Positions 48,501 through 51,500 of a stretch of 64,000 nt of DNA are shown in pieces. The stretch comes from Escherichia coli. Its GTDB lineage: Bacteria; Pseudomonadota; Gammaproteobacteria; Enterobacterales; Enterobacteriaceae. Numbering within the stretch: the stretch's first letter is position 1; each line of letters starts with the position of its first letter. Position numbers: made by a program. The stretch lies in the NCBI RefSeq assembly GCF_017348835.2, contig NZ_CP071375.1. One strand, given 5' to 3'.

Positions 48501-51500
48501 GCTTCGGGCTGTTTGCGCATTGATGCTGAGATACGCTTCCAGTCTTCGCGATCCTTGTCGATAACCTCATTTGTCGCCCAGCGATGGATGGTACCGTCAA
48601 TGTTTCCTGCATCCACATCACCGGGCCAGAGGGCGCAGGCCAGTTCATTGTCGAGTGTTTTCCATGTCTGTTTGTATTCGCGGCGAATGGCAACAGTGAC
48701 AGCCCCGGTTTTTTCAGCAGCGTTTTCAGTGTTCTGTTGGTTGACTCTGGCGCGGGTGAGATCAACAACAGACGTGTATTTTCCGGTTTCCTTGCGTTCA
48801 CCTTCGCGACGTTTTTTCCAGATGCGCATCTCTGCCTGAATTTCAGGCCATTTAGCGCCAGGCTCACATTTATGCTTAACCCACCCGATGGCATGCAGTT
48901 TAAGTTCAGGATACATGGCGTTAACTTCTGGCATTTTCATCAACGCTTCAACGATATGTCCGCCGAATGTTGCCATGTCTTCCTGTAGTAATTCCTGTGC
49001 GCTAATCACCATATCAACGGTGATGTTTTCGCATGTGTCGAATTTAACCAGGACTGCGTTCTGTACTTCAGGGGACAGCTTGTCAAAATTGACGTTCATC
49101 GGATCGGATTCTGGTTCGACCGGTACAAAGGAAGCTGACTCCTCATCCCAGCGGTTTTCCTGCATATATTCGGTATCCCAGGAATCGAGGGCAGGGCGGG
49201 GTATGCCGGGTTTATCCTCGCAGACAATAAATTTATAAGCGCAGTCCTGAGCTGCCGGGAATTGCTCCAGAAATTGCCAGTGAAATTTTGCGCGTGCGCG
49301 ACGCTCATCACCGGCTTCAATGGCAGTGGCCACCGCAACAGCGCTATCTTCTTTTATGGCCTGTTCGTCAGGAATAGCAGCGCAAATAAAGATTTTACTC
49401 ATTGTGTTTTAACCTCATTACAGATTTAAGGGTGAACAAATCCCTGCCATTGCTGGCATATAAAAATGAAACCGGATATTAATTACGGTGCTGTTTTAAA
49501 GTCCTGCCGGTATTTCGTTATTATTAGTGTGAGTAGTTTTATCTACCGGATAACAGTTACCGGGAATTTTTTGTTCTGCTGCTGCAGCCATGCATTCTTT
49601 CATTGAACCGTATAAGCCAGTCACCAGCTCAAGAGATTCGCCGGAAACAAGATAAACTGTCAGAACGAGTGCAAATGTTGTATTCATTGTTTATATCCTT
49701 TTTGCAGCAGGTCCAGACGAGCCAGCATTGAAGGAATGCATACTTCATTTAACAGGTCCTGCTCGAGTTTTCTCTGCTTAATGGCGTCTTCAATAAATGT
49801 TTTGTCTCCAGTGATAACGCCAATTTCGAAACGAAGTTCAGACGTGCTGGCATTACATGATAACTTTTCCATTATCGCGTCCTCAACAATGAATTTTGTG
49901 ATGCGGTGCCTGGTGCCTCCAGGTGACGTTAACCAGTTAACAATTAACGCCGGATACAGAGCATTCTCGTTACTCAGCAAATGACCGCTTTACCGATTTA
50001 ACTGTTCCGCGTGCGCTGAGCCGCATTCACCGCATCACAAAATTCACTTTTAAAAAAGGGCGGCAGAGCAGTCACGGAGTAAAACTGATACCGCCAAATG
50101 TCACCAGAATATTGATAACAGAGGGCGTTGCAGCGGGGTTGTCACTTAAGCGTATGGTCAACCTGACAACCCGGTGTCCTCAACGGGGAAAGAATAACCC
50201 CGCCATACTTACCGCCGCGCCATTTCGCGGATTGCCACAACCGGAAGCGCACGGTCGAATTAAATTTAACGACGGCTCTAAGGGAGAAGGACTTCGCCGT
50301 GCACTTTCGTGTTATGCCCTGACTTTTCAGGGATATATCCTTTCAGTAAACTGTCAGTGCCGGATTCTTATCTGTGTCCGGCGCACGACCACACGTAGCA
50401 GCGTGTTGGTCTCCATTTTTAATTCAGCCCTTAATGGAGGATAAAATGCCAAACAAACCATGCCCTGCCTGTAACGCTCTTTCTGGCTTTTTAGAGAAGG
50501 GCGGTTATTACATTTTTAACTGTCCAGAACATGTTGAATTTCATATATCAAAACTTGACAGTATCATTACAAAGCCAAATCAGTATCAGTCTGATTTACT
50601 GAATAAAGAGTTAAACGCCGCCCGAGATTAAGGGCGTAGTGGCCCATTAAAAATATTGCAAAGACCAACTATTGTTGAACTGGATTAAACCAGTAATTCT
50701 CTATTGCTCTTATTGTTACCATCGGATGATTGCCGGGGGTTATTTTAAGTTCGGGAGGAAAAGGCTCTCCATCAGCAGCCATCATTGAGTATGTGAAATC
50801 CGCCGACGCAGTCCCTTTCATGATAATTCCGAATTTTTCAAGTAATGAGAGCAGTTCCGGTAATCCTGTGTCATCTGAATAACTTTCCTCATAGAAAGAA
50901 GCGATTGCCGCAGGAGATGACAGTTCTCGCTCTGCAATTTTTTTGTAGTTTTCCAGAGTTCTTTTTTTGAATACTTTTCCTCGACATGAAAACCCATCAC
51001 CGAGGCAATCCGCTTTGCAGTTTCTTCAGTATTCTGGTTGTTTGTTACCGAAACAGAGTACAATCCGGTAAACGCATCGCGCACATTACGAGCCATATTA
51101 TCAATGTATTTCTTCGTTGCAGATTCTAATTCAACTTCGTTCAGACGTTGGTGAAGTGCATGTGCTGCAATTTCCTGGATTTCTTTTAGTAAATCTTTAA
51201 ATTCCATCTTTAACTCCGTTAGTCGTTAGATTTTGCCGAACTGGAAAGCGCCTGTTTAAACTCACTGAAGCTGAGAGCTTCCTCGCCTTCGGCAAGGCCT
51301 TTGAACCGCCCCGGGTTTCCTGGAGAGTGTTTTATCTGTGAACTCAGGCTGCCAGATCATTATTTCCGATGGAAGCATAATAAGCTTTTTCTGCTTCTGC
51401 CGGAGGAATATGGCCCAGCCTTTCCAGCAATCGTCGATTGTTATACCAGTCCACCCACGTTAGTGTGGCCAGTTCCACTTCTGCACGGTTTTTCCAGCTC

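What the first reader, a model, noticed from the sequence alone, without database searches (positions are those of the whole stretch)
49496..50110. DicF sRNA - DicB - YdfD-like cell-division-inhibitor module in a second prophage context
A 53-nt stretch near-identical to DicF as I recall it sits directly upstream of a 62-aa DicB-like ORF and a 63-aa hydrophobic YdfD-like ORF, all on the minus strand, reproducing the Qin dicF-dicB-ydfD order. Here it is combined with a Rac-like immunity and replication module and an exonuclease, which suggests modular exchange among cryptic prophages.
Basis: partly seen in the sequence, partly recalled or inferred. Interest (0 to 1): 0.6.

Follow-up and report, generated by a model that had tools for sequence, protein, structure and literature searches.

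The report
DicF-DicB-YdfD prophage cell-division module
This stretch is a real copy of the well-known prophage cassette encoding the small RNA DicF and the small toxic proteins DicB and YdfD, and because such copies outside the K-12 Qin prophage are common in E. coli and already published, the finding is correct but ordinary.

Summary
Window 50058-50110(-) is DicF: Rfam scores 77 bits against a gathering score of 48, and 51 of 53 bases match K-12. Window 49684-49872(-) is DicB: full-length Pfam match, NCBIfam 123.7 bits against a cut-off of 100, 55% identical to K-12. Window 49496-49687(-) is YdfD/DUF1482, 63% identical to K-12. The gene order, the ATGA overlap and the spacing match Qin.

The window is 100% identical to E. 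coli PE164, in a lambdoid prophage beside yccA. The same prophage occurs at >=99% identity in O157, O103 and O45 strains.

The module is in 4740 of 5426 complete E. coli genomes (median 2 places per genome) and in sequenced temperate phages. Published work already reports dicBF in several prophage types and four dicF copies in EHEC.

The context claim is only partly right. The exonuclease is the intact form of Qin's ydfE. The repressor is not RacR-like and is only 29% identical to DicA. Only the loader and neighbouring genes resemble Rac.

Local details:
- An IS3-family element interrupts ydfB between the promoter and dicF.
- DicF carries G12A.
- DicB has S5 where K-12 L5 is critical.

Side result: DicF and Rac's KilS look like alleles of one recombining sRNA locus that shares a structured spacer.

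The parts
53600..54001 (-). cI/DicA-like helix-turn-helix repressor (133 aa), the presumed repressor of the operon
   Evidence: 29% identical to DicA and no match to RacR. NCBIfam DicA subfamily model scores 54.6 bits against a cut-off of 101. PHROG transcriptional regulator/repressor families match.
53094..53572 (-). RelB-like antitoxin (53381-53572) and RelE/ParE-family toxin (53094-53381), located between the repressor and the operon promoter
   Evidence: PGAP annotation of the identical PE164 and O103 loci. A terminator-like hairpin with a T-run follows at 53075-53060(-).
52999..53042 (-). Best sigma-70-like promoter on the operon strand (53028-52999: TTGACA, 18-nt spacer, TAGATT; 10 of 12 matches), overlapped by a 16-bp perfect palindrome (53004-53042) that is a candidate operator
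   Evidence: This region is not homologous to K-12 dicBp: similarity to K-12 starts only about 38 nt before the ydfA ATG. Its function is inferred, not shown.
52662..52817 (-). ydfA homologue (DUF1391, 51 aa), first gene of the operon
   Evidence: 100% identical to K-12 YdfA and 86% to Rac YdaF.
51306..52611 (-). IS3-family insertion sequence (IS629/IS1203-like, about 1.3 kb) inserted in ydfB at about codon 15, in the same orientation as the operon
   Evidence: ALIL frameshift pseudoknot at 52160-52276(-), 121.5 bits. ORFs of 108 aa and 296 aa. Insertion point mapped against the IS-free O103 locus L001. PGAP annotates an IS3 family transposase and a partial ydfB.
50818..51207 (-). 129-aa ORF of unknown function in the position of ydfC
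   Evidence: phrog_1363, unknown function, E 3.9e-50. No match in K-12 Qin or Rac.
50111..50273 (-). Conserved non-coding leader upstream of DicF, the body of the published 190-nt RNase III-generated DicF precursor (expected 5' end near 50247)
   Evidence: About 98% identical to K-12. Mean pairwise identity 94.5% across 102 unique loci. The 190-nt species and its RNase III dependence are from PMC10448788. Its 5' part is homologous to the start of Rac KilS.
50058..50110 (-). DicF small RNA (53 nt), consisting of a single-stranded 5' part (nt 1-15) and a terminator hairpin followed by a T6 run
   Evidence: Rfam RF00039 77 bits against 48. 51 of 53 bases match K-12. Predicted hairpin is identical to K-12 at -15.9 kcal/mol.
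49873..50057 (-). Structured dicF-dicB spacer with a 20-bp closing stem (arms 50047-50028 and 49908-49889) enclosing smaller hairpins. The published 72-nt RNase III 3' end of DicF would fall at about 50039, inside the 5' arm. The dicB Shine-Dalgarno sequence GAGGA follows.
   Evidence: MFE -89.9 kcal/mol, z -4.25. Compensatory pairs across 114 unique variants. 77% identical to the Rac kilS-kilR spacer. Sub-threshold STnc100 match, 33.6 bits against 47.
49684..49872 (-). dicB allele (62 aa, starting MEKLSCN...)
   Evidence: Pfam PF05358 E 7.7e-39. NCBIfam 123.7 bits against a cut-off of 100. 55% identical to K-12 DicB. PGAP names it DicB, WP_000413705.1.
49496..49687 (-). ydfD allele (63 aa, DUF1482), whose start overlaps the dicB stop (ATGA)
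   Evidence: Pfam PF07358 E 3.1e-19. 63% identical to K-12 YdfD. N2, both Cys and the terminal L63 are conserved (alignment, compared with PMC8835842).
49445..49458 (-). Small hairpin after ydfD, a possible 3' end of the ydfA-to-ydfD transcript
   Evidence: Terminator-like site with a weak T-run. In K-12 the longest transcript detected ends after ydfD (PMC10448788). This role is inferred.
45624..49402 (-). Remainder of the left arm: 823-aa exonuclease (46931-49402), DUF4224 excisionase (46621-46863) and tyrosine integrase (45624-46643), abutting the chromosomal gene yccA
   Evidence: Exonuclease N-terminus is 89% identical to Qin ydfE and its middle part 38% to RecE. phrog_2082 exonuclease and phrog_1266 excisionase. 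PGAP annotation, with yccA as neighbour.

Best explanation
This is the middle of the early-left (PL-type) operon of a lambdoid prophage integrated beside yccA. It carries a functional-looking copy of the DicF-DicB-YdfD host-takeover cassette first described in K-12 Qin. The likely mechanism is inferred by homology to K-12.

1. In the lysogen, the cI/DicA-like repressor keeps the promoter upstream of ydfA off.
2. When repression lapses, one long transcript is made: ydfA, ydfB, orf129, leader, dicF, spacer, dicB, ydfD.
3. RNase III cuts in the conserved leader to give a roughly 190-nt precursor. RNase E then trims it to the 53-nt DicF, which ends at its own intrinsic terminator.
4. Read-through transcripts are cut by RNase III in the 20-bp closing stem of the spacer. 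This gives a 72-nt DicF and releases the dicB-ydfD message.
5. DicF, with Hfq, pairs through its hairpin region with the ftsZ ribosome-binding site and through its 5' part with metabolic mRNAs.
6. DicB binds MinC and takes it to the septum, blocking the Z ring. DicB also blocks ManYZ-dependent phage DNA entry.
7. YdfD inhibits IspG and causes lysis, unless division is already blocked.

Shown here: the identity of the parts, their order, and the conservation of the RNA processing context. Inferred: every biochemical step for this particular allele set.

In this strain the IS3-family element in ydfB lies between the promoter and dicF, so expression is probably reduced or rewired.
For: Identity of the parts:
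- DicF: Rfam 77 bits against 48. 51 of 53 bases match K-12, and nt 13-53, which include the ftsZ-pairing hairpin region, are identical.
- DicB: full-length Pfam match E 7.7e-39 and NCBIfam above its cut-off.
- YdfD: DUF1482 E 3.1e-19, with N2, both Cys and L63 conserved.

Operon context:
- ydfA is 100% identical to K-12, and the exonuclease N-terminus is 89% identical to ydfE.
- A repressor gene, a terminator, and a promoter-like site with a palindrome lie upstream.

Processing context:
- The leader, dicF and spacer are about 98% identical to K-12.
- They are 94-98% conserved across 102 unique loci, while dicB and ydfD are only 73% and 67%.
- The positions expected for the 190-nt 5' end (about 50247) and the 72-nt 3' end (about 50039) fall inside the conserved leader and inside the 20-bp stem respectively.
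- The stem is kept in about 97 of 108 spacer variants, with compensatory changes.

Published mechanism: PMC5069750, PMC10448788, PMC9438474, PMC4967827, PMC8835842.

Prevalence: 4740 of 5426 complete E. coli genomes and 76 phage records, with DicF annotated in phage Tritos.
Against: - No expression or phenotype data exist for this locus.
- The 1.3-kb IS in ydfB separates dicF and dicB from the only promoter known to drive them in K-12, where no internal promoter was found (PMC10448788).
- This DicB allele has S at position 5, and L5A abolishes toxicity in K-12 DicB. It is only 55% identical overall and has not been tested; the O157 study used another allele, METLLPN.
- DicF G12A introduces a predicted mismatch in the xylR duplex.
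- The promoter and operator assignment rests on a consensus scan that found no more sites than expected from shuffles.
Confidence: 0.9

Rival explanations
1. The cassette is present but silent or decaying in this strain. On this view the IS insertion cuts it off from its promoter, and the DicB allele is weakened by L5S, so it is carried passively.
For: - An IS3-family element lies in ydfB between the promoter-like site and dicF.
- K-12 DicF derives only from the promoter upstream of ydfA.
- S5 replaces the critical L5.
- The prophage also carries a second IS3 copy and an IS481-family insertion.
Against: - All three genes are intact, with good ribosome-binding sites.
- The IS points the same way as the operon, so read-through or outward transcription is possible.
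- The same DicF/DicB allele pair is found unchanged in IS-free strains: 393 records match the 1.1-kb query at >=99% identity, and the pairing holds in 5 of 5 unique viral loci.
- All DicB alleles keep a Leu at position 4 or 5.
Confidence: 0.2
2. The cassette's selected role is protection of the lysogen against other phages (superinfection exclusion through DicB blocking ManYZ) and metabolic or virulence tuning by DicF, rather than control of cell division as such.
For: - DicB protects K-12 against phages that use ManYZ (title and abstract of 10.1101/708461 / PMC6832061).
- DicF regulates xylR, pykA and manX, and in EHEC also pchA and stx2A.
- The cassette sits in the immunity-proximal early region and is retained in most E. 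coli genomes despite being toxic.
Against: This is not exclusive with division inhibition, which is the best-documented activity. Nothing in the sequence discriminates between the two roles. The window's G12A allele may in fact weaken 5'-seed targets.
Confidence: 0.3
3. The resemblance is a chance match or an artefact of the reader's memory.
For: None.
Against: Rfam E 2.9e-15, Pfam E 7.7e-39 and 3.1e-19, and synteny with K-12 across more than 3 kb.
Confidence: 0.01

Closest known systems
dicBF operon of cryptic prophage Qin, E. coli K-12 (ydfABC-dicF-dicB-ydfD-ydfE)
   Same: - Gene order, ATGA overlap of dicB and ydfD, DicF hairpin and terminator.
- Leader and spacer about 98% identical.
- ydfA 100% identical; exonuclease N-terminus 89% identical to ydfE.
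   Different: - DicB is 55% and YdfD 63% identical.
- DicF has A1 and A12.
- orf129 plus a reverse 61-aa ORF replace ydfC.
- The repressor (29% to DicA), the promoter/operator and the integration site (yccA) are different.
- A relBE-like pair lies next to the repressor.
- The exonuclease, xis and int are intact here.
- An IS interrupts ydfB.
Extra dicF/dicBF copies in EHEC O157:H7 prophages (CP-933M/O/P; four DicF orthologues)
   Same: This is the same phenomenon and in part the same element. O157:H7 strains carry this 1.1-kb segment at 99.8% identity, and the 9.6-kb region beside yccA at about 99%. The literature is PMC5069750, PMC7873438 and PMC10448788.
   Different: The window is from a pig isolate (PE164), not O157, and it has the IS in ydfB in one uninterrupted 100% match seen only in that genome. 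I could not read Melson and Kendall 2019, so I cannot say which of their four numbered copies corresponds to this allele.
KilS sRNA - kilR (FtsZ inhibitor) of cryptic prophage Rac, E. coli K-12
   Same: - Same place in the early-left operon, downstream of the ydfA/ydaF homologue.
- Homologous 5' leader start, terminator stem GGCGG...CCGCCC-U5 and spacer (77% identical, same 20-bp closing stem).
- An sRNA followed by a small division inhibitor.
   Different: - KilS is 98 nt, with a different seed and loop. It scores 39.1 bits on the DicF model, below the gathering score of 48.
- KilR is unrelated to DicB.
- The KilS paper infers that KilS has its own promoter.
Temperate phages carrying the cassette (Escherichia phages Tritos, mEp460_ev081, PhiR42_1, HannyBb, vB_EcoS-640R1)
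   Same: The whole 850-bp dicF-dicB-ydfD segment is present at 82-83% identity. DicF, DicB and YdfD are annotated in Tritos.
   Different: They carry other DicB and YdfD alleles. These are sequenced phages rather than chromosomal prophages.

Membership tests
DicF RNA (Rfam RF00039) | Covariance-model score at or above the curated gathering score, over the full length | tested here: met
   77.0 bits against 48, model positions 1-52 of 52.
DicF RNA (Rfam RF00039) | 3' intrinsic-terminator hairpin followed by a U-run; hairpin region complementary to the ftsZ ribosome-binding site | tested here: met
   nt 13-53 are identical to K-12 DicF, followed by T6. The predicted hairpin is the same as K-12's at -15.9 kcal/mol. 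Pairing with ftsZ is taken from PMC5069750, not re-measured.
DicF RNA (Rfam RF00039) | Embedded in a polycistronic early operon between ydfABC-type genes and dicB, within the conserved processing context (190-nt RNase III precursor, RNase E 5' end) | tested here: met
   Synteny and about 98% identity of the 160-nt leader to K-12. The cleavage events themselves are not testable with these tools.
DicF RNA (Rfam RF00039) | Hfq-dependent repression of ftsZ translation, with filamentation on overexpression | not testable with these tools
   Needs reporter fusions and microscopy.
DicB (Pfam PF05358 / NCBIfam NF049927) | Full-length profile match above the curated cut-off; about 62 aa with an unextended N-terminus | tested here: met
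   Pfam 1-62 to 1-62, E 7.7e-39. NCBIfam 123.7 bits against a cut-off of 100. Same length as K-12 DicB.
DicB (Pfam PF05358 / NCBIfam NF049927) | Leu at position 5, the only single residue shown to be critical in K-12 DicB (L5A loses toxicity) | tested here: not met
   The window starts MEKLSC and K-12 starts MKTLLP, so position 5 is S while L4 is kept (PMC4967827). Across alleles, positions 4-5 read LL, LS or SL. This lowers confidence in equal potency but not in family membership.
DicB (Pfam PF05358 / NCBIfam NF049927) | [quoted passage not shown] | not testable with these tools
   No MinC-contact residues of DicB are defined in the papers read.
YdfD lysis protein (Pfam DUF1482, PF07358) | Profile match; 63 aa; intact N- and C-termini (N2, L63) and two conserved Cys | tested here: met
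   E 3.1e-19. N2, C32, C45 and L63 are all present in the alignment. Determinants are from PMC8835842.
YdfD lysis protein (Pfam DUF1482, PF07358) | Binds IspG and causes lysis | not testable with these tools
   Needs expression and pull-down experiments.
Qin-type prophage | DicA/DicC immunity region and the dicBp promoter | tested here: not met
   The repressor is 29% identical to DicA and scores 54.6 against 101 on NCBIfam's DicA model. The Cro-like protein has no DicC match. Promoter-region homology to K-12 stops about 38 nt before ydfA.
Qin-type prophage | Left-arm gene set ydfA...dicF-dicB-ydfD-ydfE | tested here: met
   ydfA 100%, ydfE region 89%, dicB 55% and ydfD 63% identical.
   No RacR, YdaS or YdaU match. 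Only YdaV-like (82%), YdaW-like (55%) and YdaT-like (32%) proteins are shared.

The most novel reading that the evidence does not exclude
DicF is not a one-off RNA. It appears to be one allele of a modular, recombining sRNA locus found at the same place in the early-left operon of many E. coli lambdoid prophages.

- All alleles, including Rac's KilS, share a 5' leader start, a GGYGG...CCRCC-U5 terminator stem, and a downstream spacer of about 185 nt closed by a 20-bp stem that serves as an RNase III site.
- The single-stranded seed, the hairpin loop and the toxic gene behind the spacer (dicB, kilR or others) are exchanged in different combinations.
- The RNA scaffold is more conserved than the proteins.
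- The window's A1/A12 DicF is strictly linked to its own DicB allele and is predicted to pair less well with xylR.

If this holds, prophages diversify host-targeting sRNA specificities by cassette exchange on a fixed processing platform.
Probability: 0.5. Interest if true: 0.45.

Novelty: already known. Interest (0 to 1): 0.15.

Why it matters
As stated, the finding adds little. DicF, DicB and YdfD are well characterised. Their presence in several non-Qin prophages, in multiple copies per genome, is published, and NCBI annotation already names dicB here. It has three practical uses.

1. dicF itself is not annotated in the PE164 or O103 records, so RNA annotation of such prophages is incomplete.
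2. This allele set (DicF G12A, DicB with S5) is a natural variant for testing which residues and bases matter.
3. The IS in ydfB gives a natural test of whether dicF depends on the upstream promoter.

The side observation that DicF and KilS are alleles on a shared processing scaffold, with seeds, loops and toxins reassorting, could matter more for understanding how prophage sRNAs evolve new targets.

Tried and rejected
- tRNA integration site: ARAGORN finds no tRNA in the window. The prophage abuts yccA.
- Spacer as an STnc100/PasD family member: the spacer scores 33.6 and 34.4 bits, below the gathering score of 47. PasD lies in a different, late-region context near Q and lpxR. I do not file the spacer under STnc100.
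- Internal promoter for dicF: no consensus promoter-like site lies just upstream of the leader on the operon strand, and the scan as a whole finds no more sites than shuffles.
- Taxonomic spread: the exact 20-nt DicF core occurs in only 1 of about 100,000 species-representative genomes, and that contig is a mis-binned E. coli prophage. This shows DicF is confined to the E. coli/Shigella pool, but the exact-match search would miss diverged copies.
- Full-length RNAduplex of DicF against targets gave unrealistic over-extended hybrids. Only the calculation restricted to the 5' part (nt 1-24) was used.
- Melson and Kendall 2019 (PMC6628830) is not held, so the four EHEC copies could not be matched to this allele.
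- The word-indexed protein search returned only 22 DicB hits, all E. coli or E. albertii, which was too few for a family alignment. I used six-frame extraction from 200 fetched loci instead.
- Structure prediction of DicB was not run, because no solved DicB or DicB-MinC structure exists to compare with.
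Full report
OBSERVATION.

- DicF: the Rfam DicF model (RF00039) matches 50058-50109 at 77.0 bits against a gathering score of 48. The E-value is 2.9e-15 for the whole window, and the match covers the whole model. Aligned with K-12 dicF, the 53 nt at 50110-50058 differ at only two positions, nt 1 (T to A) and nt 12 (G to A). Positions 13-53, which form the hairpin and terminator, are identical and are followed by a T6 run.
- DicB: a 62-aa ORF starts 185 nt downstream at 49872 and ends at 49684. It matches Pfam DicB end to end (E 7.7e-39) and passes NCBIfam's curated DicB cut-off (123.7 against 100 bits). It is 55% identical to K-12 DicB.
- YdfD: the dicB stop overlaps the start (ATGA) of a 63-aa ORF at 49687-49496. 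This ORF matches DUF1482 (E 3.1e-19) and is 63% identical to K-12 YdfD.

WHERE IT SITS. A 9.6-kb stretch around the finding is 100% identical to E. coli PE164, a pig isolate. About 99% matches occur in O157:H7, O103, O45 and O26 strains. In all of them the integrase gene abuts chromosomal yccA. Reading along the minus strand from 54001 down to 45624, the region contains:

1. a cI/DicA-like repressor;
2. a relB/relE-like pair;
3. a terminator-like hairpin;
4. the best promoter-like site on this strand (53028-52999), overlapped by a 16-bp perfect palindrome;
5. ydfA;
6. ydfB, interrupted by a 1.3-kb IS3-family element;
7. a 129-aa ORF;
8. a conserved non-coding leader;
9. dicF;
10. a structured spacer;
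11. dicB;
12. ydfD;
13. an 823-aa exonuclease;
14. an excisionase;
15. an integrase.

This is the early-left operon of a lambdoid prophage. PGAP names dicB, the DUF1482 protein and the exonuclease in these genomes, but no dicF feature is annotated.

HOW THE CONTEXT COMPARES WITH QIN AND RAC.

- ydfA is 100% identical to Qin's.
- The first 255 aa of the exonuclease are 89% identical to Qin's ydfE pseudogene, which IS2E truncates in K-12. The exonuclease therefore belongs to this arm and is simply intact here.
- The repressor is 29% identical to DicA and below NCBIfam's DicA cut-off. It has no match to RacR. The Cro-like protein matches neither prophage.
- Nucleotide similarity to K-12 begins only about 38 nt before the ydfA start, so the promoter and operator differ.
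- On the replication side, the ATPase is 82% identical to Rac YdaV, the next gene 55% to YdaW, and a YdaT-family protein 32%. The initiator is not YdaU.

The prophage is a mosaic, but 'Rac-like immunity' is not supported and the exonuclease is not a new partner.

HOW COMMON AND HOW WELL KNOWN. The 1.1-kb dicF-dicB-ydfD segment finds matches in 4740 of 5426 complete E. coli genomes. The median is 2 places per genome and the maximum is 10. There are 155 places on plasmids, and 393 records match at >=99%. It also matches 76 phage records. Eight of those hold the whole segment, and phage Tritos has DicF, DicB and YdfD annotated.

Balasubramanian et al. 2016 reported dicBF in different prophages and in multiple copies in O157:H7 (CP-933M/O/P). 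Later papers cite four DicF orthologues in EHEC. The finding is therefore already known.

MECHANISM (BY HOMOLOGY). In K-12, a repressor-controlled promoter upstream of ydfA is the only source of DicF. RNase III makes a 190-nt intermediate, and RNase E makes the 53-nt 5' end. The 3' end is either the intrinsic terminator or, in read-through RNA, an RNase III cut that gives a 72-nt form.

In the window, the expected 5' end of the 190-nt species (about 50247) lies inside a leader that is about 98% identical to K-12. The expected 72-nt end (about 50039) lies inside the 5' arm of a 20-bp stem (50047-50028 pairing with 49908-49889) that closes the spacer. The spacer folds at -89.9 kcal/mol, z -4.25.

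Across 114 unique spacer variants, several pairs change on both sides: AU/GC, AU/CG, GC/UA and UA/GC. About 97 of 108 parsed variants keep the closing stem, and one variant has two double compensatory changes.

DicF then acts on ftsZ through its hairpin region and on xylR, pykA and manX through its 5' part. DicB acts through MinC. YdfD acts through IspG.

WHAT IS PARTICULAR TO THIS COPY.

1. IS insertion. The IS3-family element (about 51306-52611, same orientation as the operon) splits ydfB at about codon 15. Only PE164 shows this arrangement as a single 100% piece. Because K-12 has no internal promoter for dicF, the IS is likely to be polar. This is inferred.
2. DicF allele. A1/A12 is a minority allele: 4 exact copies among about 124 sampled, against 79 for the K-12 allele. 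It is linked to this DicB allele in 5 of 5 unique loci. In a calculation restricted to DicF nt 1-24, K-12 DicF nt 4-18 forms 13 contiguous pairs with xylR +7 to +21 (-20.3 kcal/mol). A12 puts a C.A mismatch in the middle of that duplex (-14.5 kcal/mol).
3. DicB allele. The N-terminus reads MEKLSC where K-12 has MKTLLP. L5A abolishes toxicity in K-12 DicB. Across the alleles sampled, positions 4-5 read LL, LS or SL, so one Leu is always kept. The O157 DicB study used a different allele.
4. YdfD. N2, both Cys and L63, all needed in K-12, are conserved.

CONSERVATION PATTERN. I fetched 102 unique loci through a 20-nt DicF core. This inflates DicF's own identity value but not that of its flanks. 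Mean pairwise identities are:

- leader: 94.5%
- DicF: 98.5%
- spacer: 94.0%
- dicB: 73.2%
- ydfD: 67.4%
- region further upstream: 74.6%

The RNA scaffold is therefore more constrained, or more recently spread, than the proteins. The sample is redundant and not phylogenetically corrected.

SIDE RESULT: DicF AND KilS. K-12 Rac has, in the same operon position, the sRNA KilS followed by kilR, an FtsZ inhibitor.

- The window's spacer is 77% identical (138/180) to the Rac sequence from the last 11 nt of kilS to about 20 nt before kilR, including the closing stem.
- KilS matches the Rfam DicF model over its full length at 39.1 bits. This is below the gathering score of 48, with E 3e-5.
- KilS and DicF share the GGCGG...CCGCCC-U5 stem.
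- The start of the DicF leader (50273-50237) aligns with the region around the KilS 5' end, scoring 32 against a shuffle maximum of 28 in 500.

Among 168 unique loci fetched through a spacer motif:

- DicF precedes DicB in 90.
- KilS precedes KilR in 25.
- DicF precedes KilR in 5.
- Other upstream RNAs precede DicB in about 20.

Parsing each locus into seed, hairpin and protein shows mixed types. Eight loci have a DicF seed with a short unrelated hairpin. Four have a KilS seed with the DicF hairpin. Several further hairpin loops also occur.

I found no statement of this relationship in the papers searched. That library is incomplete.

VERDICT. The core interpretation is right, and the context claims are partly wrong. 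The feature is already known and annotated apart from the RNA itself. Interest is low. The allelic-series reading is the only part that might be new.

Noticed in passing
window 49873-50273 (-); L003 (K-12 Rac) 7250-7521 (-): DicF/pre-DicF and Rac's KilS share a leader start, a terminator stem and the downstream 20-bp-stem spacer. Across fetched loci the seed, the hairpin loop and the downstream toxin (DicB, KilR or others) occur in mixed combinations. KilS scores 39.1 bits on the Rfam DicF model, below the gathering score of 48.
   Followed up: yes
window 50446-50631 (+): A 61-aa ORF with CPAC...CPEH motifs (WP_001133046.1, phrog_10133, unknown function) lies on the opposite strand between the 129-aa ORF and the DicF leader. 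This position is analogous to sieB in Rac. It is absent from K-12 Qin.
   Followed up: partly
window 52999-53075: A 16-bp perfect palindrome (53004-53042) overlaps the -35 hexamer of the best promoter-like site upstream of ydfA, directly after a terminator-like hairpin (53075-53060). It is a candidate operator for the non-DicA repressor. The region is not homologous to K-12 dicBp.
   Followed up: partly
window 53094-53572 (-): A relB-like and relE/ParE-family toxin-antitoxin pair sits directly downstream of the prophage repressor gene in the same orientation. In K-12 Qin, relBE lies elsewhere, near hokD.
   Followed up: no
window ~51306-52611 (-) and ~60087-61400 (+): Two copies of the same IS3-family element lie in inverted orientation (ALIL pseudoknots at 52160-52276 and 60368-60484, 121.5 and 120.3 bits). 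They bracket the whole immunity and replication region, an arrangement that could allow inversion.
   Followed up: no
window 61489-62908: The sok antisense RNA (Rfam 102 bits, 61489-61655) is separated from hokD (62753-62908) by an IS481-family transposase gene (61614-62681, minus strand, per the PE164 annotation). The hok/sok locus looks disrupted.
   Followed up: partly
L206 (SFGN01000096.1, 'Lachnospiraceae bacterium' MAG): This is the only species-representative genome contig with the exact DicF core. It is 99% identical to this prophage's replication region over 3.4 kb, so it is almost certainly a mis-binned E. coli prophage contig.
   Followed up: partly
phage records MT713136.1 (Aeromonas phage AP1) and PP818812.1 (Actinobacillus phage vB_Apl-pPE4): Phage records from unexpected hosts carry 80-88% matches to the DicF/spacer segment. 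This could be contamination or real transfer.
   Followed up: no
window 49895-50044 (-); L002 6433-6642: The dicF-dicB spacer gives sub-threshold matches to Rfam STnc100 (33.6 and 34.4 bits against 47). A 2026 preprint links STnc100 to PasD, but PasD lies in a different, late-region context, so the meaning of the match is unclear.
   Followed up: partly
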